From assembly GCA_965178125.1 (NCBI GenBank), contig OZ237749.1:806001-870000 (forward strand): 64,000 nucleotides of DNA, written 5' to 3'. This document shows positions 22,091 through 55,987 of this stretch, piece by piece. A program made the translations under genes and the position numbers. A model generated the notes under the pieces. That model did not search any database and had not been told where the DNA came from. It saw nothing but the letters and a program-made list of their open reading frames with translations. This DNA comes from Bilabrum cf. latius (lineage: Eukaryota). The number at the start of each line of letters is the position of its first letter. The stretch's first letter is position 1.

Positions 22091-23630
22091 TCACAGTTCA
22101 TCGTGTGCAGCTGCCCCTCCGCTCTCAAGCTGCAGACGCAGCTCGTTTGCGTACTTGTCGTCGCACGCGGCTGGCGTGCGGAGCGTGGCGGTGTAGGCGC
22201 ACTTGCTCGGTTCGTCCACGGAGAGCAGCTCCTCGTCCACGCCGCATTCCAGAGTCACCGTCATGCTCCTGTTCGGACCCTGGTAACAGTGCTGCCCGTT
22301 CGTGAATTTCATCACGGAGTGGCCACCCTCCCCCCAGCCCGCAAAGGTGCCGAGGCTCGTCCCGTCCTGTGAAGAGCGGTCGAACGGGCAGACCTTGTAC
22401 GTGTACTTCTGCACCTTCTTCTCGATGCAGCGCCCCCGCAGCGGAGCGAATTCGGACTGCGGGCCGTAGTCGTGCTTCGCCGCACCCTCCGCGTCCCCCA
22501 GCTCTCTCTCGGCGGCGCGCAGGTCCTCTTGGGCCCTCCGGTGCTCGTCCCTTCGCCTCTCGGCCTCCTCGCTCTTGTAACCCCCCGCTCCTGTATCCTC
22601 GTCCTTCCAGGCGATCTGGGCCACTGGCACGGCGGCGGGAGGAGGCGTGGATCCCGGTTCCCCCGATGCAGCAGCAGCGGCAGTTGACTTCTCCGTGTGC
22701 CAGTCCTTGGCGATCTGGGCGAGCATGTCTCCCTGCTTGGTGTCGCGGGCCAGTCGGATGAGGACCGCCCTGAGCTCGTCAGCGGTGGCGTCCTGCAGGC
22801 CCAGGCCCTTGATGACGGCCTTGTCCTTATTGTGTTTCCTTTCCTCCTTCTCCTTCTCCTCTTCCTCCTCGGCCAGCTTGCGGGCCCGATCTGCCTCGTC
22901 CCTCCTCGCGGCGGCCTCCTCCTTCTTGTTCTTCAGCTCGGCGATCTTGGCGTCTCGCTCGGACGTCTCTTTCTGGCCCTGCTCGATGTACTGCTTCTTC
23001 TTCAGGGCGCCCTCCTCGGCCTGGCGGATGCGCTCTGCCTGCAGCTTGCGCCACTCCGCACCGTCCGAGTCGCACGTGTTCGCGCACTTGACGGGGGAGT
23101 CGTACTCATCGCTCCCATCGCAACTGTGATCGGAAGGGGCAATGAAGTAGGGAGAAGATGCATGCAGGCTGGACTTCGTTCAATCGAATAACACGGTGCT
23201 TGCTCTCAACGCGCCTCACCAGTCGCATACCCCGTCGTTCACAATCGATGCCGGGACTGTCTTCCCACGGAATCCCTTGTTAATGCAATAAAACTTTCCA
23301 TTTGCACACGCAGCTGCGAGCATTAAGGAACGCGTGCAGCGGAGGATCCGAATGAGTGGACACGTGGACTAAGCCGGTTCGAGTGTTTGCCGCTAGTACA
23401 GCCAACAATGCATCAGAGCGGCAAATCTTACACGTGCCAGGTTCATCCGTCCCATCTTTGCAATCACAGTAGTCATCATTCACTCTTCCGATTGGATACG
23501 TCCGGGATCCACCGTCGCAGCTGAAGGTATCGCCTTGGTACAAATGCTATTTAGACGACGGCACGCCCAGCACATCTGCAGCCACAACACATGCACTCAA
23601 TCCAAATAGTGCAAGAAGTGCAGTCTACAT
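22091..23630 (-). CDS. PRKCSH: Glucosidase II beta subunit (PRKCSH/GTB1), 3 exons
   Basis: Signal peptide [51 protein letters not shown]; coiled coil; MRH domain (YTYKVCPF, GQHCYQGPNRS, DEPSKCAY); C-terminal HDEL then TGA. In-frame TAG at 23625 and 23547. Confidence 0.93.
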
Positions 23631-35953: not shown

Positions 35954-36028
35954 TCTTGCCAGTGGTGGGAAGAAGAGCTCCGGATTACCGGTTTTTTTGC
36001 TTGTCAAAAAAACGATCATACACAAGCA

Positions 36029-37167: not shown

Positions 37168-39801
37168 ATGGGTGTGCTGCAAGCTGCAATCTACTTGTTT
37201 TCGTTGTTACTAGTAAACACGGCGGGTGCACAGGAGTTTGCAGCCGCTGTGTTTGACGTCACGGTAGGCAGAGACGATCCCGCGACCTTGATGCGAACAC
37301 TGCGTACTACCAAATTCTCTGCTCTAGATTCTAGTACCTGCGACGAAGTGCTTTCTCAGCTATGCCTGTTCTTACAACGCAAAACAGTGTCACCAGACGG
37401 CGAACCAACGTGGCCTTTTTGGAGGATTTTTATTGTCGCACAGCAACCGACGAGTGGCAGCCCCAGGAGAGCTGATGTACGAATGAACGAGCTTTTCAGT
37501 TCAGCGAAGCAGAACAATGTCTTCATAGAAGGCGTTCCTGTCGCCAGCTCACGATTCATGGCGACCTGGCCAGGCATCGAGGACAAGGCAAGGGAGGTAG
37601 CAGGCAAATCAAATCAAAACAGGTATTTGTACTGGCAAGGGCGCCAAGCGAACTACATGCAGACCTCGCCAGTATTTGCTACCACTGTTTATGGCTTGCT
37701 TTCCAGCAGTGTTGCCTGGGACAATACCGCTGCCCCTGGGATCCAAATAGTATCGAAGTCAAGACGCCTGGCCGGATTTGGGCTGCCTAGACCCGTCCTT
37801 TTGGCAAGGAAATACTGGCGGGTATTTCGACGTATCAGACGCATGATCTCATGGACTAGGACAGCGTTGGAGCTTGCAAGATGCTTTTCGTCGCGGTATG
37901 AGCCGTCTCAAGCCCACGACGGCAGGCGCAGTCCAGTTTTGCTTCGCGTCGAGGACTCGGCGTGGAGAGCGGCGAGTGCCTTCCATGCGTATGCGAGACA
38001 TGTCAATGTATCAATTGGAGTTAATAGGGGTGTTGCGGCTCTCGCTGGTATCCCGCCCCGCATTCGACAAGGAGATAGCTCGGAGCAGGTGCTCGAAAAT
38101 CTCAACGGGCACGGACGGCGGCCGCAACTGTCTCTGTACTAGCATATGATGTCTTCTCTAGCAGACCAACTCACCAGAATTGGATCGTTAATTGGTTTCA
38201 AGGCTCAGATTTGGCGCACGGTAGGTAACGGTTTGGGTCCGTACCCCATTGAGCCGAATCTCGCGATGCAAGGCACGACGAACCTGCTCGGGCATTTCGC
38301 CTACGTCGCAGCTGCATAGCTTGCTGAAGAAGATCACGAACGGTACGGCCACTTGTTGCGCTCTCTCCCAGCCTGCAACCTGGGGGTTCAGTTGAATCAG
38401 TATGCTCACACAAGTGTTGCCCGAGCACTTTCTCGCGTCCATTCCGACGAGCCTGCCGCAAGCTCGGCACAACTTGTAGTCGTCAGGCGAGTGCAGCTAG
38501 CTGTAGACGTGATGGCTGCTGGTCGTGAACGCGCCGAGGCGATGGTAAGGCGCGCCTTTTCGGAGGCAGAGGCGCCTCGCTTGGCTCAGGCGGGCGCGCA
38601 GGAGTTGCAGATTCGGTCTTTGCTTCGCCGGCACATGGAAGCGCGGGCACGGCTGTGCACGATCGTGCCGGCCAGTTCGCTGGAGAAAGGCATCGTGGAG
38701 CACTCTGTGCACGCTGCTTTCCTGGCATCCAGGCGGGTCATCATCGCTCTGAAATCCCACCTGCACGACGGAAGACCGGAGCAACCGAGGCTATTCCGCC
38801 AGATCGCTGACCAGTACCCTGCTGGCAGCGTGGACGTCGTTGTACGCCCTTTCAACCACACCGAGTGGCGGGACGCATGGGTGACAGACCGATTTGCGGC
38901 TCCTAACATGCAGTGGATCGCCCAGACCAGGTATGCTGCCACTCAAGAAGCACTGCAAAGGAACTCATCTTTGCCCGTCCGTCAGCCTGTTGCCGCCGCC
39001 GACCTTGGTGCACCACGCGCAAGCGATGACGATGCCGCGGTGCACGCGGCCGCTGCACGTTTCCTCTCGGCGCAAGCCGAAAAGCAGGCGGGCGGACCTA
39101 GCGGCTTGTGGCAGCTGCAGATCGACGCTGACGAAGTGGTGGACCCCTGGAGGCTGGGTCGAGTGCTGGATCGGCTCCACAAAGAGAGCGCGGGAGGCGG
39201 CTCCCTACTCGCTGTCAACAGGGTGGCAGCAGCGGCAGCATCCAGCGCACCTGCGACAGACAGTGGTGCAGCCGGCAGCGATGTCGCGCCTTCTCGACAC
39301 CCTGCTGATCCGGTCGAAGATGCCTGGGTTATCGGCCTGGGCTGTTCCCTGACCTCCCAGTGCCCAGGCCCAGTCCTCCGATCCTCGAGCGGTGCCGCCT
39401 CCATGGCCTCCTGGGTGCGACGCTCTGAGACTCTCCCGCTCGCCGAGCAGATCACCGTGGAGTACGGGCTGCTTCTGCGCGAGGACGTGATCCGGAGCCT
39501 GTCACCCTCGGCCATCCTGCACCACCTAGACCGGAACTGGGCATCGTCGATGGACACCCCGCAGTTCTGGCCAAGGTAGCTGGAGATGCCGCGGAGGTTC
39601 GTGGTGGACCAGGAGCCCGAATGGTCCAGCTGCAGGGCGTAGGGCCAAGGCGCGTGTACAGGGCCCGTGGGTGGCCCCGTGGTGCTGCATCTGCGGGACG
39701 TGCGGCTCTCGGAGGACCTGCTCGCCATGAAGTACACGCTGAGGGGCGAGTCGGGATACACTGCTCCCGGGTATGAGAAGTGGCAGATCGAAGATGCGTA
39801 A
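37168..39801 (+). CDS. Secreted ~877-aa protein with a possible GT-A glycosyltransferase motif
   Basis: Signal peptide MGVLQAAIYLFSLLLVNTAGA; WQLQIDADE resembles the GT2-type W...LDADE DxD motif; 4 in-frame TAG (38140, ~38317, 39577, ~39640); ends TAA at 39799-39801. Confidence 0.55.
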
Positions 39802-39981
39802 TGTTGTTGCTGGATATTTCCATTTCTGTTGTTTCCCGCTTCCCGCACGATAAACGCGCCCAGCTTCTATGCGTTCTGAATGCACTCGTCAGCGACCAAA
39901 CGATGCGACCCAAAGCTCAACGGAACCAACCACAGCCACCGGATCTAAAAAAACTGCAGTGCCAGCAACGCATCAGAAACG

Positions 39982-41493
39982 ATGGCGACAGTGAACACTT
40001 CCACGTACTCCCCTAGATCAGCAAGACAAAGAATTGCTGCCTCACGGCGTGATCGGTTAGCCGCAAATCAGCTGCAGACATTTGGAATTGCAGATGATGA
40101 CAGCGATTCCGAAGTCGAGGATGTGCCCTCAACGCTTGCGAGAAAGCTTGCAACTTTTCGCACCGACACGCTGCCGTCAGCAAAAGCAACTAAGTACTTC
40201 TACGGCGGGAACGATGCGCCGCAGAGAGGCTCATATGCGCAGTTCAAGGCGAGCATGCGAGCCGGCAGGACTTTGAGTGAGGCGAAGGACCAGGTAGCTC
40301 CTGATAGAGGCGCAATCACAAGGGTCGATCCCCAGCGGGTCAGCGCATCATTTAAGCCTGGTGATTTTGTTGCCGACCGTACGAGCGAGCACGAGATGCA
40401 GCGCCGTCGCCGCCAAGAGGAGGACTCGGAGATCGGTCGACGCGTGGCAGAAAAGTTTGGATCGACTGCTTAGCACCGTGCGGCTGCTGCCAGGCGAGCG
40501 TAGCCTGGATTGACACGCGAGCAACGTCGAACCCTGCGGGCCGATGACCCTGAATCGGTGTACAATAAGAGCAGGAGCCACATCCTGGATCGCGACCAAA
40601 GGCGTCGTGAGAGGTTTATCACCAAGGCTTTGAAATCTAGAGCCACTGGTCCTAGAGAGAACTTCGTTCAAAGCGCAAGGGCAAAGCTTCGCTCAACCGA
40701 GCGCAAAGTACAGAAGGCGATCGCGAAGGCGGAGCAGCGGCGCGGCGCAACCAGCGCTCGGGCCAGCACCCGCGGCGGGGTCGGCATGGGCGGGGGCCGG
40801 CGCGACAGGGCAGAGCGGGACAGAGCTCGCGCCGCGCGCCGAGTGACCGGCCGCGGGGCCGGCGCTGTACGGCCGGAAGTGGTCGAGGAGGCCGCTCGTC
40901 ACACCGCCCGATGGGGCATGATGGAGGACCACGAGGTGGGCGTGCTGCGCGAGAGGCTCGCAGCCTCCGGCGTCATGGGCAGAGAGGACGCTGATCGCGC
41001 TCGTCACATGCCCGAGAGCGCTCACACGGGCGTGTTCTCCCTGCGGGAGGCGGCAGGGCGCTACGACACCCGGCGGCGCGCAGCAGGCGGTCGCTCGGCC
41101 AACGGTGGTCTCCGCGGTGGCGGGGGCGAGAGCAAGGTGCTGACGCTGATGGACGTGGAGGCTCAGCGCGCCCGTCGGCGAGCGGCCAAGCGGGAGCTGG
41201 CAGAGCGACAGCTGACCAGCGGTATGCCGGTGACACTCAAGACCAGAGGTGGGGTGGGGCAGGCATCGCACGTCCACAGCCGGGTGTTCCGACCCAAGGG
41301 CGGGGGCCTGCAGGTGGGTGACCTGGCTCTGGATGCGGCCAGGGTTGCGGCGGCGAGCGAGGTGGAGGAGAAGAGGCGCCGCTTGCACCGACACCAGGAG
41401 ATGAAGACGAAGCTGTTTGACGCGGAGAAGGGCAAGGCAGGAGGCGGTACCAGGCCAGGGCCCATGTTCAGGGGGCTGAAGCTCCGGCACTGA
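39982..41493 (+). CDS. Hypothetical basic Arg-rich protein (~503 aa)
   Basis: ORFs 39982-40473 and 40510-41493 are in frame, joined across TAG at 40471 and 40501; ends TGA. Confidence 0.7.
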
Positions 41494-41734
41494 GCCGGCC
41501 GGTCCGTTATTCATTATTCTTGGGCGCCGGGCCACGGCAGGTCAGGGCAAGATAAGCACAATCCTCTTATATGCAGCTGGTGAGGCGTCAATGATACAAG
41601 CGTGATTCCTTTGCATTTTCTCGTGGGGCCAAGAGTTGCTGCAACCTGAGTCCAAGTTAAGAAAGAATCACACGTACAGCCTGAGGTCTCGAGGGCTGCC
41701 CTGCTATCATGCCCAGCACACGAGGCCCTTGTGT

Positions 41735-43453
41735 TCAGCGGGCCGGCTGCTGCACTGCCTTTTCAGTCGCAGCCCGAATGTTCCTGGCCCATTTGCGTGC
41801 TGCTGCCTTGATCCTATCTGCTGCTGCAACGGCACTAGGGCCCGTGCCCCGTGTGAGTGCAGCCTTGCCAGCAGGCGCCCCCAGCCAGTCGATGAGCGAG
41901 TCGGCGGCGGCTGCCCCACCGATCGTCTCGGCGTCCACAACCGCATTCTGCTTGGTAGTTTCATTCCTGTTATCGCTCCGGGTACTCGCGCTGCTTTGCA
42001 CTGAGTCGAGGAGGGCAGCCATGGCTCTGCCGCTGCGGTATGCCCTGGCAATTGCGTTTCGAGCAAGTGCCTCCTCTCGCTCAGGCTGCTTGCCAGGATC
42101 TCCTTGCGTTTTGCTTCGCTTGACCGGCGCTTTCTTTTTTGATTTACCTACTTTCGATGCCTTGTCGGGTTCGCCTGTTCCCCAAAGGTCGGTCGAAGCG
42201 AGAATGACGGCAGCCCCCTGCGCCACAGCAGAGACGCTTGGCTGCAAGCCGAGGACGAGCCGCGTGGTCTCGACGCAAGAAGGCATACATGGAATGAGAC
42301 CATTGTTCAAACCGGCACGCGAGGTGCAACTCTGCAGGCGCTCCATCCCGTGCGCTGGCTGCACCCCGAAGTGACGGGTGGCCAGTCCAGCCAGCACGTC
42401 CCGCAGCAGGAACTCAATAGGATCCACTCTTCTTCCTTTTGAAGGCACAGCAGTCTTGCTAGAGCCGATATAAAAGCGCTTCGGAAGCAGATCCTCCGCT
42501 CGGTTCTCGGCCGCCGCCCTCCAAATGGCATGCGCTGGGCCGGAGGAGGAGGGAGGCTCCAGTGCCGCCGTGGTGCCATGACCCTGGTCCTGGCCTAAGC
42601 TGTCATCAGCTGGCGTTACCCGTGCATGCATGTTGCATGTCATCATTGCCGCTGCCTCTGTTGCCACGGCGCCGCCGTACGCCGCCACCAGGATGGCATC
42701 TGCAACGTCAGATGCGGTCGGCGAGGCCAGCAGGGCTTCCTCGGCTAGTTGCACGGCATCGGCTGTTCCCCGCGGCACATCCATCGTAAGATCATTAAAA
42801 TCGTGCGGAGAAGCTTTGCTTTTTGCTGCACTGCCACGGGCAGACCAGGAATCGTGCGGAAGCAGGTACTCGACAGCGCTCGGGAAGCTCTTGATGCAAG
42901 CGGCTGCCGCTGCAAGCTTGATTCGCTGTTTCTTTGCTGCTGCTTTCAGGGTCGCCGATTTTTTGTCGGGGTTAAGCGAATCTAATTGCTTGGCAATAAC
43001 ATCGACTCCAAAAAGGCCTCGCACGCGGTTTGGCATCGCGTGGAGAGGGGATCGCAACCCTGCTCGGCTGTGGTAGTTGGACCACACCGAGTGGGAAACC
43101 ACCGCATTGAGCTGAGCCAGGGAAAACATCCCTCGTGAATGTGACATCCCTGGAAGAAACTACCTCATAAAGTCCTCAATAGCCCACAAAGCAATGTTGT
43201 CGTGCTGCTGGTGCAACCGGTTGACTGTGCGAATCTGCTCGTCCGCAGACACATGGAAATCTTCAGCGCTGCTGGATCCTGGGCAAGAAATCACACCCGC
43301 CTCTGCAACTTTCCAGGCTTCAACATCAATCACTGCGGCACCTGGTGAACGGGTGCTTATATCTAGACCAGCAGAGTGAAACCTGCGCCTCAATCGAGAG
43401 GCTGTGCGAACCTATGCACCCAAACCAAAGACCAGACCATAAACTCGATTCAT
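41735..43453 (-). CDS. Probable mitochondrial protein (~572 aa), possibly a degenerate RNase III plus dsRBD (mL44-like)
   Basis: Presequence-like MNRVYGLVFGLGA*VRTASRLRRRFHS; TAG at ~43412 and 43160; DVADAILVAAYGGAV and LWGTGE...EEALARNAIARAY weakly recall RNase III/dsRBD motifs; ends TGA. Gene is well supported, product is tentative. Confidence 0.45.
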
Positions 43454-43575
43454 AAGCGTATCATCGCACAGAGTATCTACTAGAGTATAACAAAAGTGCA
43501 CTGTCAAGCATTGAAGTTTAATCGTCACGTTGCACGACTAGCCATCGGCTGCTGGGGCCTACAATTGAGGGCAAG
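43454..43575. promoter_or_regulatory. Putative bidirectional promoter containing palindrome AGTGCACT at 43495-43502
   Basis: 122-bp AT-rich gap between divergent genes 41735-43453(-) and 43576-45033(+). Confidence 0.45.
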
Positions 43576-45033
43576 ATGGAAGGCGAAAGGGATTTTCCAA
43601 CATTAGTTGATTTGGTATATGATGAGTTAGCAGAATCTGGGGGGGAATCCTTCGTCCACTCCACCAAACGCCTACCGTCACGAATGCTGCTGGAAGCGAT
43701 TCAGTTGATCATAGATGCAGGCGTTTTGAGGCCTCAAGACGCACGCAGCATAGGAACGGTTATCCATAGACATGGTATCGAATCATTAAAATTAACTGGG
43801 GTTGATTTGCCGCCAAAGGCTCTCCTGGAGCTAGCGCAGGCAGGGCACCTAGCAGAGCTGATTCTGGACAGGCCAGAGATGCAGTCACCAAGCTCAACAG
43901 GTAAGGGTGATACAAGAGCTGCTCCCATTGTACAAAGTCTATCCATAGATAGAGCTGGGGGGCTCGAAGCAAGCTGTGTCGACGCGATGTGCCACGGATG
44001 CAACAAACTGCGTGCCCTGTGCATTACTGCGTCCCATCTGCCGTCGGACGCTGCTGTGGCCGCGCTGCGTCGTGTCGCCGGCGCAGACACTGTGCCAATT
44101 GAGCATCTTGACTTGTCCGGAAACCCTGCGATCGGCAATATATTCTAGGCACACGTGCGGGACAACCCCACGTAGGCGCAGCTACCGCGGCTGTAGCACC
44201 TTTCGCTGTCCAACTGCAGCGGGGCGCTAGCGAGCGCTGATGAGGTCGCTGCGATGGCCGCCACGGCACCGCATCTAGCTGACATCGATGCATCCCGCAC
44301 TGGCTTGTCCGATGCAGGTCTAGCAATCCTCGTCGGCTCGCTGCCGCGCTTGGAGCGGCTTGCGATTGGAGGGTCGGCAGTATCAAATGCTGGCCTCAGG
44401 GGCGTCCTTTCGTCGGGGCAGTCAGAGCAGGCGGCGTGCTCTTGCCAGCCACACGACAGCAGCAGCGAGCCACTTTTGCCCTCGCTGTCTGGTGGTCAGG
44501 CAAGTGGTCAAGAAGGGATCAACGGTGCCTCCTGTTCCTCGTCAGCGTCTGAGCCGAAGGTTGCAGCAAGTGCCGGGAATGCGCTTGTAGCGTCACCGGC
44601 TGCCTGGCACGATGCAACCGGTGCTGAAGCAGCAGGAGGGGCGAAATACGCAGGCGGTGCCTGCAGCAGCAGCGCGCTCAGGTTAGCTGAACGCCTCGAG
44701 GCGCTGGACGCTAGCGATTTGGGTCTGACCGACGACACGGTGCTCTGCCTCGCACGGTATTCGAAGCTGGAGTGGCTCAGGCTGGATGGGAATAGAGCGG
44801 TGGGTCAAGCAGCGCTGGAGTCAATCGCAGAGTCCCTTGCCCATTCGCTGAGGTTCCTGGGAGCCGCTGCCACTGCGATGAAGGACAAGAACGCGGTGGT
44901 GGTGGCAGCTTCGGCGGCCGTGGCGGAGGGCGGAAGGGATGCCCTTGGGGGAGGCGAGGAGGTCGCAATGGAGGCAGATGAAGGCCTTGTGGTCGCGGAT
45001 GCGGATGAGGGTCTCTTCTGGAAGGCAATGTAA
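43576..45033 (+). CDS. Leucine-rich repeat protein (RNI/AMN1-like)
   Basis: IEHLDLSGN, LPRL*HLSLSNC, LADIDASRT, LERLAIGGS, LEALDASDL, LEWLRLDGN; 3 in-frame TAG (44146, 44173, 44194); ends TAA. Confidence 0.75.
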
Positions 45034-45161
45034 TGCATGGGCGAAGCTTGTATGAATTGTTCGAATGCTGGGCACGCTCCCAAGGAGATGCCCAGGCCAT
45101 ACCGATGACAGCTGCTTGACACAACGGGCCAGATCACGCACCGTCTCATGCTCCACATCGC

Positions 45162-48100
45162 TCAGCTGAAAATATCGCTGCCGGCCGTCACGCTGCTTGC
45201 CAGACGGTCTCGTTTCTTGGATCGTCCAGAGATAGAGCGCGCCTTCCGTGACTTCGATCTGCCGGGCTTTGGTGTGCTGCCGCCGCTCTGGCGCTTCGTC
45301 GCGCCTACCAGTGGGTTGTGCAGGTACTGTACCTTCTCCATCTGTTCCCCCGTCCACACCAATGCGCTGGAATTACCAATCTCCACCCTCTTGCCCCTCA
45401 CCGTGCCCTTGCCTCTGTCTGCAGCGGCGGCGTCACCCCACACCGCCCTGCGCCGCTGCTCCTCCTTCTTGTTCTTGCGGCGGCGGCGCCTTGCTTCTTC
45501 GTCCTCTAACCCCAGGGCTGAAGCGATGGCATCCTTCACACCCGCGTACACATCCAGACCTTCGCCCGGCAGTAGCCGCAGCAGCCCGAAGAGGTCCAGG
45601 AAGATCTCGTCCCTGTCTGCTTCGTTCCACATGTTCACGTCACGGAGGAGCAGCTCGCCCTTGCGCCGGAACATCTGCTGGAAGAGCCGCTGCTCCATGG
45701 CTGCTCGCTGGTACCGGTTGAAACCCAGCCTCTGGTCGTCATCTTGCCTCTTCCTGTTCCTCGTGACCTCCATGAGCGTGGTCAGCACAACCCCGCACAG
45801 GGTGGCGATGCACACGATCACAACGCAGATGGACAGGTACAGCTTGATCTCCTCGTTCAGCTGCTCGTTGAAACTGAAGAGCACCGCACTGAAGAGGCAA
45901 AAGAGCAATGCCAGGGAGCTTCCGATGGCAAGACGATTGTTCTACGCGAACTCGTAGGGCTGCACCACAGAGAGAGTGAATGCGTAGACCACGAACACAG
46001 ACATGGTGAGCACGATCTGCAGTATGCTCTGCTCGGTCGTGTTGTCTCGGCCCGTGAACATGATCACTGCGACCACCAGCCCCTTCCTAGCCAGTTGCAC
46101 CAGCTCAAAGGCCCATGCCTCCTTGGCGTACGGCAAGGTGAGCGACCCAAACAGGAAGTCAAACTTTGACGATCCGATCATCTCGTTGCTGTACCCGTAC
46201 AGCAAGATCCCGGCCGCGATCACCGGCACGCCAATTACGTAGACAGTGACGGCCATGAGCACCCAGGGCAGCCAGTTCTGCCACTCGTCCGTGTAGCACT
46301 ACACCTCGGTGGCCGTCCGGACCAGGAAGCTGCCGTCAGGCTGCTCCACGCACGACAGCGGCTCCAGCGCTGTGGTGGCCAAAAACGTATAGCTAATAGA
46401 CAGCAGCGTCACAGTGGCGTATACGAACCGATTTGTGATGTTCACCTGTACCTCCATCCGACGCACGAGGGCCCTTTCGCTCTCAGTGCGAGGCAGCAAG
46501 GCAACGGCCTGGTTCATGCGCTGCAACTCCTGCTCATCCTCAGAGCTCTCCGGCCCAAGCGGGCTGTCAAGCGTGGTGACTGCGAGTTTGCCGACTGATA
46601 AATCGCGCCCCAGGCCTGGCGGTTTAGTCGGGCCACTGGCCGCACCTGTCGGCTTCTAGCCCGGCAGCTCCTTCACCGCTGTGGTGTTCTGGCCTAGCAG
46701 CGCCCTCCTGGACACACCTCTCGCACGGGCGATAGTCTGGTCTCCGAGCAGCCCGAACCCTGTGGATACCGAGCGGTCGCGCACTGGGATCTTGCCAGAG
46801 TCGAACGCAACCTTCGCCTCTCTGTCCGCGGCTGCAAGGCGAGCCGCTGCATCCCCGCTGGGGCCGCCCCGCCTCTCCCGAGGCGGAGGCCCGTGCCCGC
46901 GTCCCCGAGCTCCTTGATTGCGCATCGGATTCAAGCCGGAGAATGACCCATTCTCCTTGCCAGCTCCTGGTGTGCCTGACTCGTCGACGAGATCCTCGGG
47001 CCTGATCAGCGCACCGCCCCGCTGTCCCATGATCGAGGTGCGCTTCCTGGCGGCCTTGGCGCCCCACCGTGCGCCGCTGGCTCCCAGGCCCGACTTGCGG
47101 TGGATCTGTCGCATCATGCCCGCGTTCGCAACTGAGGGTCGCACTCCCCGCCTGAGCTGGCCCATCACCCTCTTTGTCACGTCTCCGCCTGGCTTGCGGG
47201 AGAGCACGCTCCGTCGCTTGTAATGGTTGGCGAGCGCTGCGAGCTGCTCAGCAGCGTTCGCGCCGCTTGCATCCGCTGATCTCTTCCGCGCACCTTGTGT
47301 CGATGATTTCTCCTGCGGTGGGCTTGTGCCCTGCTTGTCGCCTGAGCCTGCGGCTGCCCTGTGGAAATCAAAGCGACCCGAGGTGGTTGTGGACGGTGGC
47401 GTCTGCAAAGCACGGCCGGGCACGGTCTACCCTATTCCCGTCTTAGTCGAATCGATACCATGTTGGGCTAATGCCGCCCCAGACCCTCCGTTTGCTAGCT
47501 GCAGCTGAGTGAGCTTTGGGGTCCTGCGGCGCCGCCCCGACAAAGAGTGCGCATCGCTCCCACCGACCGACTCGCCGTCCGAAGACAAACTGCCGTCAAT
47601 TGACGCGCCGACGCCAAGCAGGGCCCGTTTCGGGTGCGGCTGGCTGTGCCTGAGTGCGTGCCTTACGGATGCTGTCACGCTCACAGAATCCTTGCCCATC
47701 CGGTCAGACCCACTGCGAGGCGAATGGCCTACTGTTGTGTGGTGCATGCCCTGCGGTAGCAGGTCGCCAAACGTATCCAAGTCCTCTCTACCATCAGCTT
47801 CAGACGCGGTGCTGGCCGCACCAAGACCCCGCAGGGGGTTGGGTGCGGTGCTCTCACCCTGCAGCCCGAGCTCAGGCGAACCGCTGCGCTGAGTAGCGGC
47901 CTTGCGAACCACAGCCTGCAATGCAGCAGGCACTACCACAGACGGACGAGGCATGCGGCGATTCTTCTGGCTCTTTTGCTAGATTGCAGGCAGCGGCCCT
48001 CGCTGCCGAATGGCGAGGGTGCCGGCGTCTGCGCGCTCGATCGCCTGCAGGCGCCTCCTTACCCATGTGCCAGCCTAGCGCTTCCGAATGCGAGCCAGTT

Positions 48101-51100
48101 GCTTCTTTCCTAGCATCCTCAGAGGGTTAGAGAGCCAGTAGCCGAGCCAGGGGTCTTCTGGATCGTCGCTGCGACCAAAGACCCCACCGAACCAGCCTTT
48201 CGAGCTCGCGCCAGCGCCGACAGCTTTGGCCCCCCGTCTGGCCTTGTGCTTCTTTCCGAGAGCCTTGGCCATCAACCGATCGGCCTCCATCTACTCCAGT
48301 GTGTCTGCTTTGAGCGACTCTTCAAACAGTCGGCGCCACTGTAGCCTGGACGCCTCGGTGCGTGTGTCCGGCGCGATGGCAACTGCTAGGATGTCCCGAG
48401 GGAACGCGTCCTCCTCGTCTAGAGATACCGAGGGCAGACCAGCGGCAGCAGCCATCAGCTGCAGCTTGCTCTTGGAATCTTGTGCGGCCAAGCCACCTCT
48501 TCGCTTGCCTTTCCTGCTCCTGCGACTCTTGGGGCTTGCCCCGTCACCGCCAGCCGCTGCCCTTGCCTCTGACTTGCTGCCATTGGCGAGCGCCATAAGG
48601 TCACGCGATGCCGTGCGATCAGGAGATGAGTTCGACTCGCTTCCAGGCCCGCCTTCATCCTCGGATCCTTTGCCCGAATCAGACTTGCTACCGCTGCTAT
48701 CGCCTCCTGACGACTCGCTGTCGCTCGAACTGCTGCTGGAACTGCTGCCGTCTGACACGACACCACCTTGAGCATTGGCACGCAACCGTTGCAGCCGAAG
48801 CCGCCTTGTTTCGTACTCTCTGGTATGATATTTCATCAGTCGCAGCAGCTCCTTCATCTGGCCGGGCTCAAGGGCGTTGGCCTCTCGACGAGCGGCGGCC
48901 GCTGCGGCCGCCAGCGCGATCTGCTCCACTTGCTCAGCAGCACCCATCGATCGCTGCGAGTCTCCGATACTGCGGCGGGACCGCCTCGACATGGAGTGAG
49001 ACCTGCCTCTGCTTCCAAAGATGTTGGACGCACTGAGGTCGTCCAAGCCCTGAATGGAGCGCTTGCTGGCCATCATCGCTGCACCGCCTACCGGCCTACG
49101 GGCAGCAGCGATGCCCCGCAAGAGGGGCACTGTGAAAACCTGCGGCACGATCACACCTCTCTTGGACACATTGAGGCTAGACTGCTGGGATGATGCTGAT
49201 GAGCATCCGATCGAGCTGTTTGAACCGTGCACGTGCGCGGCAGCATCTGCTTTCGGCCCTGACTTAAGCCGCGCCTGGGGCACTGGAGCTCCGCCAGCAA
49301 GCTGCTTTGCACCAAATATGCTCTTGAAGCGGGGGGCCCTGCGCCTCCCACCGAATCCAACACCGTTACCGCCGTTAAAAGGCACCATGGCCCCGCTGTA
49401 TTGCGCCGGTGATGCTGCTGAAGCGCTCCCTGCCGAGTTTCTCCTTCTCAGCCCAGCAGGCAGCCTGAAATCGCCAAGCAGCTCCTCTTGCTCTCGCAAA
49501 AAAGGCCTCGCCCACATCGGACCGATCACCATGGTCCCATCCTTCCGTAGGAGAGCGTGCTCGACCAGTGCCTCGCGAAGCAGCAGTCTCGGGTTCGGCA
49601 CACGTTGCTGGGGCGATGATGCCCCTGCGGCCCCGAACGGGCGCTGCCCTTTCTTTTGGGGAGACCAAGCGCTGGCCGAGCTGAGGGGGTTTACACGCCA
49701 CTCATCTTTACCGCTCTTTTTTGCTTGCGCATCGGAAGACATCTGAGCTTGGGACGAGCTGCCCATGCCTATTCTCTCCTGCATCCCGGCCGAGCCCTAG
49801 GCAGGTCCAGCCAGTAGCGCCTTGGCCATGTCCCTGGCTCGATCGACCTCATCCTGCTCGGCCTTCTGCTGCTGGCTCCACGTCTCTTCCATCCACTTGA
49901 CGTGCGACCGGCTCAGCCTCGTCCCGCTCTTGCCGCTCGTCATCGTCAGGGCACTCAGTCTGCCCGGGCCCACCTTGCCCACAGACGTCCGCCTGCTGTC
50001 TCCGCGGATCCCCGTGCGCTCCTTGACCAGAGCATTTGAAGGGGTTGCTGCAACCAAATCGCGCTTGGAACCGCCTTGCTTTGCCGACATCCGCCTGGTG
50101 GATCGGGGCTGGGCTAGCAGTCGGCGGTTGTGCTGCCTCCGCTTCCGGTCCGCCCGCGCTGTCCTGGCCGTCTCGTCCTCTCGCTGGGCTTGGCGGTCGT
50201 AATACGACACGAAGTAGTAGATGCACAACGGTGCGCCGCAAAACAAGATAGTCACAAAGGCTGCAGCAGTGTACTTTAGGCACGTGGTTGCGCCCTCGCT
50301 GCACGTCTTGCTGAAGCGGACAAAGCACTCTTGCGCATCATGCACGCAGCCCTCGTCTGGGTTCTCGTTACCTCTGCACCATGTGCGCACGCACGGGCCG
50401 ATCGTCTTGTTGCGCTCCAGTTGGTGCTGCAAACCCACGCACGTTCGAGAGCAGTACTTGTACGCCGGAACGAGCAGGTAGTACAGCAGAAGGATAGAGC
50501 CCACAAAAGCTGGTGCCATCATCTTGAAGGCCCACTTGCCGTGGAAGCTCATCGGAATACTGCAATCGGGGCTGAACAGCTCCACGTTGGCATTGGCAAT
50601 CGAGGTGGCGCTGAACACCTCCACCACGAGGCTAGGCCACTGCACCTGGACAGCGTGAAACACGCTCAGGATCTGCACGAATGATAGGCCGATGGCAGGG
50701 GCAACAATCTTCCTTCCCGTGGGAGCTGCGAAAGCCAGCAAACCGGCGCACGCACCAAGCACGACGATAGCCAAGATGGCCCAAAGCCATGCTGTGGACG
50801 GCGGGCACTGCACGCACCGGCCCTATAGCTCGTAGTACTCGAGGGGCTCACAGGTACCGCAAAGGCGGCCCGTGTAGCCAATCGCACAGGTTGCATTCCC
50901 AGCAAAGTCGCCATCTTCGATGAAGCCAAGACACGCCTCCTCAGGGCTGCACTGGAAGAAGATGTACGGGGTGACCATGTCAACCCAGAATCCTGGAAGC
51001 GCGCGGGGCGGGTCACGGGTCATGCCAGGGCACAGCGCACCTTCGGGACAAGGGAAGCACTCTCCCCCGGGTTCCTACTGGTAGAAGCCCTCTTCGCACA

Positions 51101-54100
51101 GGCAGGCCTCGATACTCGTCGAGGCCAGCAGCAGGGTACGAGAATTTGCGGGGCATGACTGACAGCTCGGCTGGCTGCTATTTGGCTGGAATGTACGCAC
51201 GTCGCACAGTTCACACTCGATCGCGCCGGCTGCACCGGAAAACTGTCCTGGTGGACACACTGTGCATTCGGTCACACCGCCCTCTTCGTTCGAGGTGAAT
51301 GTGCCCGGCGCGCACAGGGTGCACTCCACAGATGCCGATCTGTTTGAAAACGACCCCGGGAGACAATCTCTGCATTGAGGAGTCGCGGTAGAAGACGCAA
51401 ACTTCGTTGGTTCGCATGGAGTACACCTGGTGGAGCCAACGGCAGGGGCGTCATAGCCGGCCTCACATGGCCTGCACGTCTGCTCGCCGTAGCTCGAAGT
51501 AAAGAAGCCAGGTGCGCACGCCTGGCATGCCAGCTCGCCAGGTGACGGCAGTACGCCAGGCGGCAACGTAGTGCGGAAGCCCGGGGGGCAGCCCTCCACG
51601 AAAGTCAGTAGGGTGGGTGCCGGCGCCGTGGCCACCATCTTACCAGTGCCCCCTTCCCCGGTGGTCGCAGACTGCTCAATGTCCAGCAGGCGGACCACGA
51701 CGGGCCCTAGGAATCCCCTGCCCACCGGCGAAGGGCACGAGACCAGCTCCTCAGATTCGAACCGGATGTTGGTTGACGCAGCGCCCTGTCTGGCTTGAAA
51801 ATAGCATTGCATCTAACGCTTGAAGCCAGTCCCGGCTACCTCGATCTCAATCTCTGCTAACTGCGCAACCACGTCTGCAGATATCGAGGCGATTTGAGCC
51901 TCGGTACACGCAGACATGGCACACCTACCCGCATTGCAATTCGAGGCAAACAGCCTGTCGACAGGGCATGCTGGGCTGTTTCCGTCGAGGTTGAATCGGA
52001 CTGGCCACCTATGCCATACCTCTTCTCCTCCCGCCGCGAAGTGTACTGTAGATGGGACGAGAGGACCGGCAAATGAGTTGCTACCGAGGTCCATGTAGTT
52101 CAATCGACCTGGGTTCGCCTGTCCAAGGGACGAAGGCCACAGCTCCTCGCGGGTGAATCCAGGGAAAGGCGCTACCGACTCGTCTTCAGGGCCTCCCACC
52201 TGGCCTGGCTGGTCAAATCCGATCAAGCCAGCGTATGGAGAGTCATCTGGGATGTCATGCACACCGATAGATACGTTGAGTCCCAGTACGGCGGCTTGCT
52301 AGACTCTGCTCTCAAACACGATGTGCCTGGACCGATTGAAGAAACCGTCAGGCAGCCTAGATAGCAAGACGTTCCCTCGCAGGTGCAACTCCTCGAGCCT
52401 GTTGGTGCTGACGAACAGGCAGTGCGGAAGCAAGCCGAACATGCCGTTCCAGTCCAGTCGCAAGAACTCTAGGCCCTCAATGGACGACAGCCGGCACAGA
52501 GGCTCGATGGCCATCTGAGCGGACGCAAGTCGGTTCAGACCCAAGTCGATGTTCTCAAGGCTAGGAAATAAGCCGGCGTCTCCCACTGTCGCTAGCAGTG
52601 CAAGGGCTTCGCGAGACATCTCCAGACGAGGGGTTGACAAAGCTCCAGCGTCTCCGTACCCCGCCAGGTCAGCCACATCACCTCCTTCCAGCTCCTGGCC
52701 AAGCTCAGACGCAGTACGGATCGCTTCGTCGTCCGTCACAGTCAGAGATCCGTCTTGTTCGATCGTCGCCTGCAACAATCGGAAAGAAGCCCTGACGGTA
52801 GACTGAAACCGGAGGTGCCGGCTGCTACTGGCCTAAACATGGTCTGCTATACCCATTGAAGCACGCCAGCCTCCGTCATCCCAACTGTCCTATTCCCACT
52901 ATTCGGCCATGTATCCCCTGCTTGGATTCATTTCGATCTATACAGACTCGAACGGTTTGCCGCCGAACTCGGCGTCGCCTCCCGAGCGACCCGAGGGCGG
53001 TGACACCAGGCTACGCAGCCGGCGCGCCACCGACTGCTGCGGGACACTTACAGACTCGTTGAGACTCACATCCTCTTGTTCCTTCGCGCGCAGAAAGCTC
53101 GTTAGATTAAAGCTCGTCATCTCTCCATCAGCGAGGTACAGGGCTCGCACCGCCCGCGGCCATGCGCTGATGCGGTTGCCCCGCAGAAGTAGGCTAGTCA
53201 GGCTGGGCATCGCAGCTACGCACTCTGGAATGCCAAGGAAATCGTTGTGCTCCGCCTGTAGCGTCTGAAGCGTTGGTATTCTGCATATCGTCCTCGGTAC
53301 AATGCCATCCATTGAAGCATTGTTTACGCGCAACGTCCGTAGCCTGGGGAAGATGCGAGGCTGAGGCTCAACCCAGCTGTAGGGCGTGCCGTCTCCCTCG
53401 CGCTCCGCCATCGCACCAAAACCAGGGTCCAAGTCCGGCACAAACAAACTTCCGGCCTGCTCCAGCGCATCGACAAGCCCTAGTGCCTGTCGGGAAGGCT
53501 AGTATAGTTGCACCATGGGCTACCTAGGAACGGCAGACCCGGGCTCGATAGCAAAGCCCTGCAGAGGGTTAAGCGACAGATCCAGCGATGTAAGGTGATG
53601 ACTGTGCACGAGAGTCAGTGGTAGTCGCCTGCTAGGGTCAGACGGGTCGTCAATTGCGATCTGGTTCTGCCTCAGGTTCAAGATCTGCAGGTTCCCTGCC
53701 GTCTCGTTCTGGACCACATGGGCGGGAATGCTGGAGATCTGGTTGCGCTCCATGGTGATCTAGTACATCCACGGAGGCTGCACGAGCTGCTGAGGAATCG
53801 TGACGTAGTTGTTGTCCGATAGGTCCACCGTAACCAACGCAGGCAGGTGCGCGTCCAGAGTGACTGCAGATCCACCACTGCTTGTGTCGATAGGGCCTGT
53901 AGATAGCTGGTTCCTCCTTAGGTTGAGCGTGAAAAGCCCTGTGAGATTCCTCATGATTAACGGAACATCGATCGCGCAGTCGGTCACGGTCAGGTCGGCC
54001 AGCCCTGGCATTGGTCCCACAAAGTCCGGCAGCCTCCTAAGCTGCAGATTGCCCGAGATCCGCACGTCCACGAGCGCCCTCGCCCCCGAGAACAGGTTGG

Positions 54101-55700
54101 AAGGGAGGCTGGTGAACCTGTTGTTGTCCAGCCTCACGAACCGCATCGAGGGCCTCTGCGTATCTGCAAATCCGGTGGGTATCGTGGCGAGCTGGTTGCC
54201 GTGCAGGAGCAGCTCCTCAACGGAGGGCGTGTCGTCAAGGGCGTTGCCCAATGCCGTCAGTCTCGAATCGAACATATGCACCGTCGAAAGGCTGTGCAAA
54301 GCAGGTGAGGACGGTACTGTTGGGAGAGCCAAAGGCACCGTGTTACCGTGCAAATACAGCTACTCCAGGGCAGTGTTGGTCTGGAAGAAGCACCCGTCGA
54401 TCGAGCTGATCGGGTTGTCTGAAATATTGACGAAGTTGAGCTGGGAGAGGCCACACAGCTCATTGCCAATGCTAGAGATGGCATTCCCGCCCGCAAAGAT
54501 CCGTCCAAGATTCGGCAAACCGGACAGCTACGGAAATGCCGTCATTCCGTTGTACTGGGCGACGAAAGACTCGAGAGCTACTGCCCCGCTGACCCACGAC
54601 CCGATCGCCACGCCTGCACCTGACAGCATCCGAGAAGCTTGCAGCACCCGCAGGTTGGGAGGCGCAGATTGCAGGCCTTGCGGCGCAGACAGACTCACCC
54701 TAGTCCCGCTCACCTCAAGCCTCTCCAGCCAAGCATGGGATGCCAGCTCTGTGGGCAGGTAGCCCCGAACTTCGCTGTTCCACTCTACATCGATCTGGTA
54801 CAGTCTGGGCAGGTCAGCTAGCGCCGCACCGATGTTCTCCAGTTGTCCATGCACCTGCTGATTCCTAATCGAGAGCATTGTCACGTGTGCACCGGCGTCA
54901 ACGTCACCGTGCTCGAAACCGCAGCTGATCCCGCCCCAGTCCTCGCACATGTGCGGCGACTTATTGGTCTGGTTCAGCTCCCATCGACGGACGCCCTCGT
55001 CTAAATTGCTGCGCCAGCGCCTGCGTTCTCCCTGCGTGTTCGTAGAGAGCGCCTGGTACAGCTATACGACGGCATCCCGCTCGGAGTCTTTCACCTGGAG
55101 GTGCTCCACGTCAGCCGAAGGCGAGAGCCACGCTCGCTCGTCGACGGCGCGCCATTCCACGCTGTCATCAACTGTCTGGTTGCGGTACCTCCAATCCAGC
55201 CTCATTTCACCTGGCCCACCGCCGTTGCTGATTTCGCAGGAAATGTGCGCCAGCTGGCCACGCGCAAATTCGTACCAGCCGAACTCTCCCTGCCCAAATC
55301 TTGAATTTTCGTATTCCAACCTGTGGTTTAGCCAACAGCGGCCCCGATCGTCGTGTATTAACCGAAACCTGTACTCACCGTCGCGAGGAATTTGCGCTGT
55401 GGCGTTCATTCTGATCGCCCACCTATAGTTCAACCCCCACGGTCTGTTGTCGCCTGTAGTCCGGAACGAAGCACTCCGATACCATCGTCGTCCAAGCAAC
55501 GTTGTTCCGGGTGATTCTGGCCAAACACCGCTTCCACTATTTGTGCTCCATACCTTAAAGATTGTGCCAAACGAGAGGCCAGACGGTGGTTCCAAATCCA
55601 TCCAATCGACTGATGAGAACGCCAAAGCAGCATGATGAGAGGTCAGAACGCCAACCAAGAGCGTAAACAAATTACACAAGAGTTTCTTGCCAACTGACAT
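45162..55700 (-). CDS. Giant receptor-like membrane protein (3,512 aa): signal peptide, PA14-like domain, LRR N-cap and LRRs, Cys-rich (TNFR/GCC2-GCC3-like) repeats, multi-pass TM region
   Basis: 17 track ORFs share one frame and are joined across >20 TAG codons with no TAA or TGA in the linkers I read. WAIRMNATAQIPRDGEYRFRLIHDDRGRCWLN (PA14-like); SERDAVV*LY...CEDWGGISC (LRR N-cap); many LxxLxLxxN; CxxCxPGxF repeats; hydrophobic TM segments; ends TGA. Confidence 0.8.
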
Positions 55701-55987
55701 GATTCGAAAATTCACAAGTCCCAAGTAATGGACAGTGTCAAGCCCGCTCGTCAACGATGGGTGCCGATGCCATGGAACGCAATCAAAAATCCGATCTCAA
55801 GCGATTATTGGGGCGCCTTCGGTCTTGATGAGACAATTGAATGCTTTGATTGTGGAAGGCGCGCGCGTGGTTCGCAGCGACAGCCTTACTTTACGGAGGT
55901 GGTGCACCGAACAGGCATCCCTGACGGTCGCATCAGTTGGTCGCAAATCTTGTTTAACTTCCACCAAACGGCAATAGTTTCAAAATA

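What the first reader, a model, noticed from the sequence alone, without database searches (positions are those of the whole stretch)
39799..45033. UAA appears to remain a stop codon, uncoupling UAA from UAG
Seen: no internal in-frame TAA in any reconstructed gene, even in AT-richer 5' regions where CAA and TAG are common. Two genes appear to end in TAA (39799-39801, 45031-45033) and about 16 end in TGA. Established: most nuclear reassignments move UAA and UAG together (table 6), which reflects wobble decoding and eRF1 recognition. Inference: this is a table-15-like code that needs a CUA-only tRNA-Gln and an eRF1 that reads UAA and UGA but not UAG.
Basis: partly seen in the sequence, partly recalled or inferred. 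Interest (0 to 1): 0.8.

Follow-up and report, generated by a model that had tools for sequence, protein, structure and literature searches.

The report
TAG codes glutamine; TAA still stops
This GC-rich protist-like genome reads the stop codon TAG as glutamine but still appears to stop at TAA and TGA, a rare code variant already known from a few other microbes.

Summary
In 14 window genes (12,520 codons) there are 72 in-frame TAG, 0 TAA and 0 TGA. About 22 TAA would be expected if TAA were synonymous with TAG. Of 15 genes, 13 end in TGA and 2 in TAA (39799-39801, 45031-45033).

TAG is glutamine. It sits at conserved Gln columns of GAS8/DRC4 and a sugar porter, and it alternates with CAG/CAA in a 79%-identical relative (L001).

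TAA as a stop is well supported but not proven in the window:
- Both TAA-ended genes are orphans, so homologues cannot confirm their ends.
- Coding potential collapses right after each TAA.
- A second TAG-sense metagenome contig (L015) ends a conserved malic enzyme at TAA-N6-TAA.

One oddity remains. Both window TAAs lie in GTAATG, followed exactly 66 nt later by CCCAG. That could be read as short introns, but it does not fit the 8 homology-supported introns.

The tRNA-Gln(CUA) and eRF1 parts of the interpretation could not be tested, because no genome, tRNA gene or eRF1 gene was reachable.

This code (NCBI table 15) is already described for Iotanema and some ciliates. I file it as a probable new member of a known kind, of moderate interest.

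The parts
37168..39801 (+). Orphan gene of 877 codons with an N-terminal signal-peptide-like start (my reading). It has 4 in-frame TAG and ends in TAA.
   Evidence: ORF under TAG-sense code; no Pfam family; TAG positions; codon score of the last 25 codons +6.6.
39799..39801 (+). TAA read as the stop of gene 37168-39801.
   Evidence: Sequence. The 25 codons after it score -9.6, below all 441 coding windows tested.
39802..39879 (+). Non-coding-like stretch between the TAA and the next in-frame TGA (39877-39879).
43576..45033 (+). Gene of 485 codons with weak leucine-rich-repeat hits. It has 3 in-frame TAG and ends in TAA.
   Evidence: A contig of run X5 covers 43572-45005.
45031..45033 (+). TAA read as the stop of gene 43576-45033.
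   Evidence: Sequence. The 25 codons after it score -8.3, below all 457 coding windows tested.
45034..45108 (+). Non-coding-like stretch between the TAA and the next in-frame TGA (45106-45108). It overlaps the 3' flank of the convergent gene 45162-55754(-).
39798..39863 (+). Unexplained 66-nt segment GTAATG...CCCAG that contains the first TAA (candidate intron, judged unlikely).
45030..45095 (+). Unexplained 66-nt segment GTAATG...CCCAG that contains the second TAA (candidate intron, judged unlikely).
21496..21498 (-). In-frame TAG of GAS8/DRC4 at a conserved Gln column.
   Evidence: Q in 5 of 5 printed PDB alignments. Q also in homologues of 98%, 87%, 54% and 54% identity.
57857..57859 (-). 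In-frame TAG of the sugar-porter exon, opposite Gln in GlcP and GLUT5.
   Evidence: Q in GlcP and GLUT5, A in two GLUT9 chains, not aligned in a carnitine transporter.
23547..23549 (-). In-frame TAG in exon 1 of the glucosidase II beta-like gene. The relative L001 has a standard Gln codon there.
20371..20373 (-). TGA stop of GAS8 at the conserved C-terminus.
   Evidence: PDB homologues end 1-2 residues after the aligned end. P0151 and P0152 end with the same residues.
22091..22093 (-). TGA stop directly after HDEL in the glucosidase II beta-like gene.
   Evidence: That HDEL is an ER-retrieval signal is established knowledge.
61743..61745 (+). TGA stop of the cullin gene, 8 residues after the end of the neddylation domain.
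45162..55754 (-). Gene of 3530 codons (LRR, ephrin-receptor-like repeats) with 22 in-frame TAG and no TAA. It is the clearest sign that TAG is sense.
   Evidence: One contig of run X5, 10,829 nt long, starts at 45041 and runs past the end of the laid stretch.

Best explanation
The window is nuclear DNA of a GC-rich, intron-poor, flagellated eukaryote. Its cytoplasmic code reads UAG as glutamine and keeps UAA and UGA as stops, as in NCBI table 15. UGA is the usual stop (13 of 15 genes) and UAA the rare one (2 of 15).

Shown here:
- UAG is a frequent sense codon, 0.6% of codons and 13% of Gln codons.
- UAG falls at Gln positions.
- UAA is absent from reading frames.
- UGA ends genes at conserved C-termini.
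- Coding signal ends at the two UAA codons.

Inferred, not shown: a tRNA-Gln with anticodon CUA reads UAG, which cannot pair with UAA. No UUA-anticodon tRNA exists. eRF1 has lost recognition of UAG but keeps UAA and UGA. This is the mechanism proposed for Iotanema spirale.
For: TAG is sense. Standard-code ORFs of at most about 580 codons fuse into ORFs of 3545, 2096, 1450 and 880 codons when TAG is read through.

TAG is Gln:
- The GAS8 TAG aligns with Q in 5 of 5 printed DRC4 structures. It also aligns with Q in database homologues P0151 (98%), P0152 (87%), P0153 and P0154 (54%).
- The sugar-porter TAG aligns with Q in GlcP and GLUT5, and with A in two GLUT9 chains.
- In the syntenic relative L001 (94% aa, 79% nt), TAG stands where the window has CAG at two places. 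Those columns are Q in 59 of 80 and 41 of 80 fetched loci.
- A window TAG (23547-23549) faces a standard Gln codon in L001.

TAA is not sense. There are 0 TAA in 12,520 codons against 22 expected, P = 2.8e-10. Other frames of the same DNA hold 20-51 TAA each. ORFs that do contain TAA in the uncovered gap 18450-20551 have no Pfam family.

TAA ends genes:
- Held-out codon scores fall from +6.6 and +7.9 (last 25 codons) to -9.6 and -8.3 (next 25 codons). That is below every one of 441 and 457 coding windows and within the range seen after TGA stops.
- In L015, a TAG-sense contig from the same metagenome as L001, a malic enzyme has 7 TAG. One lies at the Q of QFEDF in 5 of 5 alignments. It has no TAA until two TAAs four codons apart (3023-3025, 3032-3034).
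- None of the 24 PDB matches aligns beyond that first TAA.

TGA is a stop. It follows HDEL, the cullin neddylation domain and the conserved GAS8 end.
Against: - Both TAA-ended genes of the window are orphans, so their C-termini cannot be checked against homologues.
- Both TAAs lie in GTAATG with CCCAG exactly 66 nt downstream, in frame. This is an unexpected coincidence that would also fit short introns.
- L015's tie to the window's organism is unproven. Its TTL gene is only 57% identical and does not group with window + L001 in a single-gene tree.
- Some TAG columns are not Gln. One L015 malic-enzyme TAG aligns with F in 5 of 5 alignments. One L001 TAG faces GAG in the window, in a column that is F or Y in 71 of 80 loci. 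The five DUF1415 TAG columns are merely polar and variable, with Q at 6-15% against 4.3% background.
- No tRNA, eRF1, ribosome-profiling or peptide data were available.
Confidence: 0.82

Rival explanations
1. The two TAAs are not stops. Each lies inside a 66-nt phase-2 intron (GTAATG...CCCAG; 39798-39863 and 45030-45095). After splicing, the proteins run 5 and 4 more codons to TGA. UGA would then be the only stop seen, and UAA would be an unused or unassigned codon.
For: Both TAAs are preceded by G and followed by TG. Both have CCCAG ending exactly 66 nt after that G, and both removals keep the frame. GTAATG occurs only 6 times in the window on both strands. GTAATG-N40-70-CCCAG occurs 3 times against 0.49 expected, and 3 of 100 shuffles reach 3.
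Against: - Eight homology-supported introns of the window all start GT[AG]AG. Seven of 8 end CGCAG and one ends CACAG. They are 89-157 nt long.
- The candidates have T at +5 and C at -4, are 66 nt long, and lack an exonic G at -1.
- Most of the coincidence is left unexplained by ordinary splicing too: the same +5 and +6 letters, the same three letters before AG, and the same length.
- Two unrelated genes would each need an intron 13-16 nt before their stop.
- The third TAA end (L015 malic enzyme) is TTAATG, with no GT.
Confidence: 0.06
2. UAA is neither decoded nor used as a regular stop. It is an avoided or unassigned codon, and the two ORF-terminal TAAs are chance or mark decaying gene ends.
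For: Only 2 of 15 genes end in TAA, and both are orphans with no homologues found. Absence from frames alone does not separate 'stop' from 'unassigned'.
Against: Coding score changes sign exactly at both TAAs. In L015, TAA-N6-TAA follows directly on the end of malic-enzyme homology. eRF1 recognition of UAA is the ancestral state, and no known nuclear code has lost it without reassignment (established knowledge, recalled).
Confidence: 0.05
3. This is an ordinary UAR = Gln code (table 6), in which TAA is merely rare because the genome is GC-rich.
For: GC3 is high (0.57-0.81 in the genes), and A-ending codons are the minority.
Against: CAA, GAA and AAA are each 29-33% as frequent as their G-ending partners. 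That predicts 22-27 TAA beside 72-82 TAG, and 0 are seen. Reading TAA as sense lengthens almost no ORF. The stretches after the two TAAs are non-coding-like.
Confidence: 0.01
4. TAG is sense but codes an amino acid other than Gln. Candidates are Glu, or Leu or Ser as in the rhizarian exLh and Scotinosphaera.
For: One TAG faces GAG in the orthologue. One malic-enzyme TAG aligns with F in 5 of 5 alignments. The DUF1415 columns are mixed R/Q/A/K/E.
Against: TAG occupies Gln columns in GAS8 (5 of 5, plus 4 database homologues), in QFEDF of malic enzyme (5 of 5) and in a TTL column (59 of 80). It exchanges with CAG or CAA in three orthologous pairs. No other residue recurs across these columns.
Confidence: 0.03

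Closest known systems
Iotanema spirale (Fornicata) nuclear code: UAG = Gln, UAA and UGA stop (Panek et al. 2017, PMC5304391; abstract and section 9 read)
   Same: It has the same three assignments. The same inferred mechanism applies: a CUA-only tRNA-Gln and an eRF1 weakened for UAG.
   Different: There UAA is the primary stop (abstract), while here TGA ends 13 of 15 genes. That case rests on transcriptome data only, while here a long, roughly 60% GC genomic contig is in hand. Its eRF1 carries T32G in the GTS motif, and the eRF1 of this organism was not seen. Whether the organisms are related is unknown.
Phyllopharyngean ciliates Hartmannula sinica and Trochilia petrani, and Protocruzia tuzeti: UAG = Gln, NCBI table 15 (McGowan et al. 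2024, PMC11687900; passages read)
   Same: UAG is used widely as a Gln codon (18.5-31.8% of Gln codons there, 13% here), with UAA and UGA kept as stops.
   Different: Those are ciliates with 27-54% GC. There UGA ends only 1.7-13.1% of genes, as read in the passages. The window is about 60% GC. It is a contig of more than 64 kb with genes on both strands and GT-AG introns of 89-157 nt, and TGA is the main stop. In the TTL tree, the loci whose matches carry in-frame stops lie far from the window.
UAR = Gln codes (NCBI table 6: many ciliates, hexamitid diplomonads, some ulvophyte green algae, oxymonads, Amoeboaphelidium)
   Same: TAG is read as Gln.
   Different: TAA is also Gln there. Here there are 0 TAA in 12,520 codons.
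Other uncoupled codes: rhizarian exLh and TARA phyllopharyngean MAGs (UAG = Leu), Scotinosphaera (UAG = Ser)
   Same: UAG is reassigned while UAA stays a stop.
   Different: The amino acid differs. Here the conserved columns say Gln.
Ambiguous stop/sense codes (Condylostoma, karyorelicts, Blastocrithidia, Amoebophrya sp. ex K. veneficum; PMC12005148, passages read)
   Same: Standard stop codons appear inside genes.
   Different: There the same codon both codes and stops, depending on context. Here no gene needs TAG as its stop, and TAA and TGA never occur internally.

Membership tests
Table-15-like nuclear code (UAG = Gln; UAA, UGA = stop) | UAG occurs in frame inside genes, including conserved ones | tested here: met
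   There are 72 TAG in 12,520 codons of 14 genes. They include GAS8, the sugar porter, cullin, DUF1415 and the glucosidase II beta-like gene.
Table-15-like nuclear code (UAG = Gln; UAA, UGA = stop) | In-frame UAG falls at conserved Gln columns | tested here: met
   GAS8: 5 of 5 PDB alignments plus 4 database homologues. Sugar porter: Q in 2 of the 4 printed chains that align there. TAG exchanges with CAG or CAA in three orthologous pairs with L001. Exceptions: one F column in L015, one F/Y column where the window has GAG, and variable DUF1415 columns.
Table-15-like nuclear code (UAG = Gln; UAA, UGA = stop) | UAA is absent from reading frames | tested here: met
   0 of 12,520 codons against 22 expected. 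Also 0 in 2,226 codons of L015 and 859 codons of L001, where 3.7 and 0.8 were expected.
Table-15-like nuclear code (UAG = Gln; UAA, UGA = stop) | UAA ends genes at C-termini confirmed by homologues | tested here: inconclusive
   In the window, both TAA genes are orphans and only the fall in coding score supports the end. In L015 the malic enzyme ends at TAA where homology ends. L015's relation to the window organism is unresolved.
Table-15-like nuclear code (UAG = Gln; UAA, UGA = stop) | UGA ends genes at conserved C-termini and is absent internally | tested here: met
   TGA follows HDEL, follows the GAS8 end 1-2 residues from the homologues' ends, and follows the cullin end 8 residues after the Nedd8 domain. 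There are 0 internal TGA.
Table-15-like nuclear code (UAG = Gln; UAA, UGA = stop) | tRNA-Gln with anticodon CUA is present and no tRNA with anticodon UUA exists | not testable with these tools
   No genome is held. No tRNA gene lies in the window or in L001, L015 or L002.
Table-15-like nuclear code (UAG = Gln; UAA, UGA = stop) | eRF1 N-domain is altered in the GTS, NIKS or YxCxxxF motifs | not testable with these tools
   No eRF1 gene lies in the window or the fetched loci, and no way was available to reach other contigs of the organism.
UAR = Gln code (table 6) | UAA occurs in frame at Gln columns | tested here: not met
   There is no in-frame TAA at all.
Ambiguous (context-dependent) stop/sense code | The reassigned codon also serves as the stop of some genes | tested here: inconclusive
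   No gene needs TAG as its stop. However, two genes carry a TAG four codons before their TGA, which cannot be interpreted without peptide or footprint data.

The most novel reading that the evidence does not exclude
UGA is the only working stop codon of this organism, and UAA is an unassigned codon kept out of mature mRNAs. Under this reading, the two UAA 'stops' lie in a previously undescribed class of 66-nt, frame-preserving mini-introns (GTAATG...CCCAG) placed just before the true UGA stop. A milder form is that UAA terminates only in a UAA-UG context, since 3 of 3 TAA ends seen are TAATG.
Probability: 0.06. Interest if true: 0.85.

Novelty: new member of a known kind. Interest (0 to 1): 0.5.

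Why it matters
Nuclear codes that change UAG but leave UAA alone are few. The papers I read name about eight lineages, four of them with Gln. They show that the ribosome, tRNAs and eRF1 can tell the two codons apart.

This case differs from the described ones in three ways. It is GC-rich and uses UGA as its main stop. It has ordinary short GT-AG introns. It also comes with long genomic contigs, which matters because Panek et al. 2017 could only predict the UAG-reading tRNA and wrote that finding it awaits genome sequencing (section 9).

If the whole assembly is searched, the two open mechanistic questions become directly answerable: the identity of the UAG-reading tRNA, and what changed in eRF1.

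At least one related species (L001) shares TAG as a sense codon. A second TAG-sense contig (L015) comes from the same metagenome. The trait therefore belongs to a lineage and not to a single isolate.

Practically, standard-code gene callers will fragment this genome's genes.

I found no paper describing this lineage.

Tried and rejected
- Whole genome: none is held.
- tRNA scans of the window and of L001, L015 and L002 found 0 genes.
- Earlier findings of this scan: none by place or by sequence.
- Homologues for the orphan or weakly conserved genes: the word-indexed protein search found nothing for DUF1415 or for the C-terminal 278 residues of the second TAA gene. The metagenome scan with the 877-residue protein found no relative among 54 pattern matches.
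- PDB: nothing for DUF1415. The three TAGs of the last sugar-porter exon lie in an unaligned tail.
- Sequencing runs: no RNA holder listed.
- Laid contigs: runs X5-X7 are only guessed to be RNA. No joints were reported in 35900-47000. X7 record 26 (44900-45050) passes the second TAA by only 17 letters. 45006-45040 has no X5 cover. None of this is used as evidence.
- Tandem Repeats Finder saw nothing in the giant gene because its period exceeds 500. The repeat finder did see the repeats.
- A first guess of a 47-nt cullin intron (59652-59698) was dropped. The exon resumes at 59804, so the intron is 152 nt.
- The TAG at 24032-24034 first looked coding, but it lies in TTL intron 2.
- Naming the organism: the nearest named GAS8 homologue is labelled as from a Symbiodinium sp. 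assembly, at 54% identity. That is too distant to place the lineage. Amoebophrya sp. ex K. veneficum was considered and rejected, because it is described as AT-rich and reads all three stops ambiguously.
Full report
**What the window is.** The 64-kb window is about 60% GC. A 73% GC block lies at 2-18 kb. Under the standard code its ORFs are short. Reading TAG as sense fuses them into ORFs of 3545, 2096, 1450 and 880 codons. Making TAA or TGA sense gives nothing comparable for real genes.

Pfam names these eukaryotic genes:
- GAS8/DRC4
- a tubulin-tyrosine-ligase-like enzyme (TTL)
- a glucosidase II beta-like protein ending in HDEL
- DUF1415
- a sugar porter
- a cullin
- a 3530-residue LRR and ephrin-receptor-like protein

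Homology across frame changes defines eight GT-AG introns of 89-157 nt. All begin GT[AG]AG. Seven end CGCAG and one ends CACAG. The sequence is therefore nuclear DNA of an intron-poor, flagellated eukaryote. No whole genome is held for it.

**The observation.** With TGA as the only stop, TAA appears in the coding-like ORFs only in 5' leaders or 25-27 codons before the next TGA.
- A first set of 15 ORFs (13,179 codons) holds 82 TAG, 0 TAA, 124 CAA and 373 CAG. The other five frames of the same DNA hold 20-51 TAA each.
- One of those ORFs (58317-59867) proved to be cullin exons mixed with intron. A refined set of 14 genes in 16 exon blocks (12,520 codons) holds 72 TAG, 0 TAA, 109 CAA and 357 CAG.
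- At the CAA/CAG ratio, 22 TAA would be expected beside 72 TAG, P(0) = 2.8e-10.
The next in-frame TGAs are at 39877-39879 and 45106-45108.
- The three TAA-containing ORFs of at least 200 codons in the one gap my gene set leaves (18450-20551) have no Pfam family and no coding-like GC3.

**What TAG means.**
- The GAS8 TAG (21496-21498, minus strand) aligns with Q in all 5 printed DRC4 structures. Database homologues of 98%, 87%, 54% and 54% identity carry Q there.
- The TAG in the sugar-porter exon (57857-57859) aligns with Q of GlcP and GLUT5. It aligns with A in two GLUT9 chains. The fifth printed chain, a carnitine transporter, starts its alignment after that position.
- A metagenome contig, L001, is syntenic with 22414-25221 at 79% nucleotide and 94% protein identity. 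In its TTL gene, TAG stands where the window has CAG twice, GAG once, and TCG once in a poorly aligned tail. The two CAG columns are Q in 59 of 80 and 41 of 80 fetched loci. The GAG column is F or Y in 71 of 80.
- Conversely, the window's TAG at 23547-23549 faces a standard Gln codon in L001.
- The five TAG columns of DUF1415, aligned with 150 homologues, are variable and polar. Q makes up 6-15% against a 4.3% background, which is compatible but not decisive.

Gln is the only residue that recurs.

**Is TAA a stop?** Absence from frames shows that TAA is not an ordinary sense codon. Three further lines bear on termination.

1. Coding potential. I trained a codon log-odds score without the tested gene and without either TAA flank. 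The last 25 codons before the TAAs score +6.6 and +7.9. The 25 codons after them score -9.6 and -8.3. That is lower than every one of 441 and 457 coding windows, and like the flanks after TGA stops, which range from -13.4 to +1.7.

2. Homologues. Both TAA-ended genes are orphans, so their ends cannot be checked this way.

3. A second contig. L015 comes from the same metagenome as L001, at 56% GC, and is also TAG-sense.
- Its malic enzyme has 7 in-frame TAG. One lies at the Q of QFEDF in 5 of 5 printed alignments, and another at a position that is F in 5 of 5.
- It has no TAA until two TAAs four codons apart (3023-3025, 3032-3034), placed where homology ends. Of 24 PDB matches, none aligns beyond the first TAA. 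Plant enzymes end 4 residues after the last shared motif.
- L015's TTL gene is only 57% identical to the window's and does not group with window + L001 in a single-gene tree. L015 is therefore supporting analogy, not proof for this organism.

**An unexplained coincidence, and the rival it suggests.** Both window TAAs sit in GTAATG. In both, CCCAG ends exactly 66 nt after that G, and removing the 66 nt keeps the frame and leaves 5 or 4 codons to TGA. GTAATG occurs only 6 times in the window.

Read as introns, the TAAs would not be stops at all. I judge this unlikely, at about 6%, for these reasons:
- The eight homology-supported introns have G at +5 in 8 of 8 and G at -4 in 7 of 8, and none is shorter than 89 nt. 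The candidates have T and C at those positions and are 66 nt long.
- Ordinary splicing would not explain the shared +5 and +6 letters, the shared CCC or the equal length.
- The L015 TAA is TTAATG, without GT.

All three TAA ends are followed by TG. That may be a context preference or chance (n = 3). The contigs laid from public runs neither bridge these sites by the tool's criterion nor show joints, so they settle nothing.

**Mechanism.** The only anticodon that reads UAG but not UAA is CUA. A tRNA-Gln(CUA), one mutation away from tRNA-Gln(CUG), together with an eRF1 that has lost UAG recognition, is the mechanism Panek et al. proposed for Iotanema, whose eRF1 has T32G in the GTS motif (PMC5304391, section 9). 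Nothing here tests it. No tRNA gene or eRF1 gene lies in the window or the fetched loci.

**Comparison with what is known.** UAG = Gln with UAA and UGA as stops is NCBI table 15. It is reported for Iotanema spirale (abstract) and for Hartmannula sinica, Trochilia petrani and Protocruzia tuzeti. UAG = Leu or Ser with UAA kept as a stop is reported for other lineages (PMC11687900, passages). In Iotanema, UAA is the primary stop. In the ciliates, UGA ends 1.7-13.1% of genes. Here TGA ends 13 of 15.

The window's GC content, its long contig with genes on both strands and its introns do not look ciliate-like. In the TTL tree, the loci whose matches contain in-frame stops lie far from it. I could not name the lineage, because the nearest named GAS8 homologue is only 54% identical. 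Six literature searches found no description of a GC-rich UAG = Gln lineage. Supplements were not consulted.

**Verdict.** The confidence of 0.82 covers TAG = Gln together with TAA and TGA as stops. The tRNA and eRF1 mechanism is inferred only. This is a probable new member of a known kind, of moderate interest, raised by the availability of genomic sequence and by the unexplained GTAATG...CCCAG pairing.

Noticed in passing
window 2-18454 (+), repeats 2057-17581: A single ORF of more than 6150 codons runs off the 5' end of the window. It contains 30 tandem copies, 94-100% identical over the 300-nt cores compared (nearly all 98-100%), spaced 510 or 555 nt apart (170 or 185 residues), at 73% GC. 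An EGF-like module lies upstream of the repeats. The near-identity suggests very recent expansion, homogenisation or assembly collapse.
   Followed up: partly
window 36920-36922 (+) and about 25963-25965 (-): Two genes (DUF1415 and the 1436-codon ORF) have an in-frame TAG four codons before their TGA stop. These may be former TAG stops that are now read through to the next stop. About 0.4 such cases would be expected by chance in 15 genes.
   Followed up: no
window 39799-39803, 45031-45035; L015 3023-3027: All three TAA gene ends seen are followed by TG (TAATG). Only 2 of the 14 TGA ends listed are followed by TG (one of those 14 later proved to be an intron boundary). This may be a termination context for the rare stop, or chance.
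   Followed up: partly
window introns 21628-21728, 57882-57970, 59652-59803, 60237-60393, 23314-23431, 23124-23219, 23792-23905, 23999-24087: The splice signals are unusually uniform. Donors are GT[AG]AG in 8 of 8 introns and acceptors are CGCAG in 7 of 8. Introns are concentrated at the 5' ends of conserved genes, while genes of up to 3530 codons have none.
   Followed up: partly
L015 1-11971: This is a second TAG-sense, TAA-stop contig from the same metagenome as the relative L001. Its TTL gene does not group with the window's. Either a paralogue or a second organism with the same code is present in that sample.
   Followed up: partly
L015 about 2099-2101: One in-frame TAG of the malic enzyme aligns with a phenylalanine that is conserved in all 5 printed PDB alignments. 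Another TAG in the same protein sits at the Q of QFEDF, also in all 5.
   Followed up: no
window 29666-30261: The 5' parts of two long divergent ORFs (25951-30261 minus, 29666-35953 plus) overlap by about 600 nt. The true start codons must lie further in, or the leaders overlap.
   Followed up: no
window 35900-47000: Contigs of run X5 coincide with single genes: 39965-41613, 41651-43428 and 43572-45005, plus one contig of 10,829 nt that starts at 45041. Their depths step from gene to gene (1.3 to 37). This looks like transcript assembly with UTRs of roughly 20-120 nt, although the run is only guessed to be RNA.
   Followed up: partly
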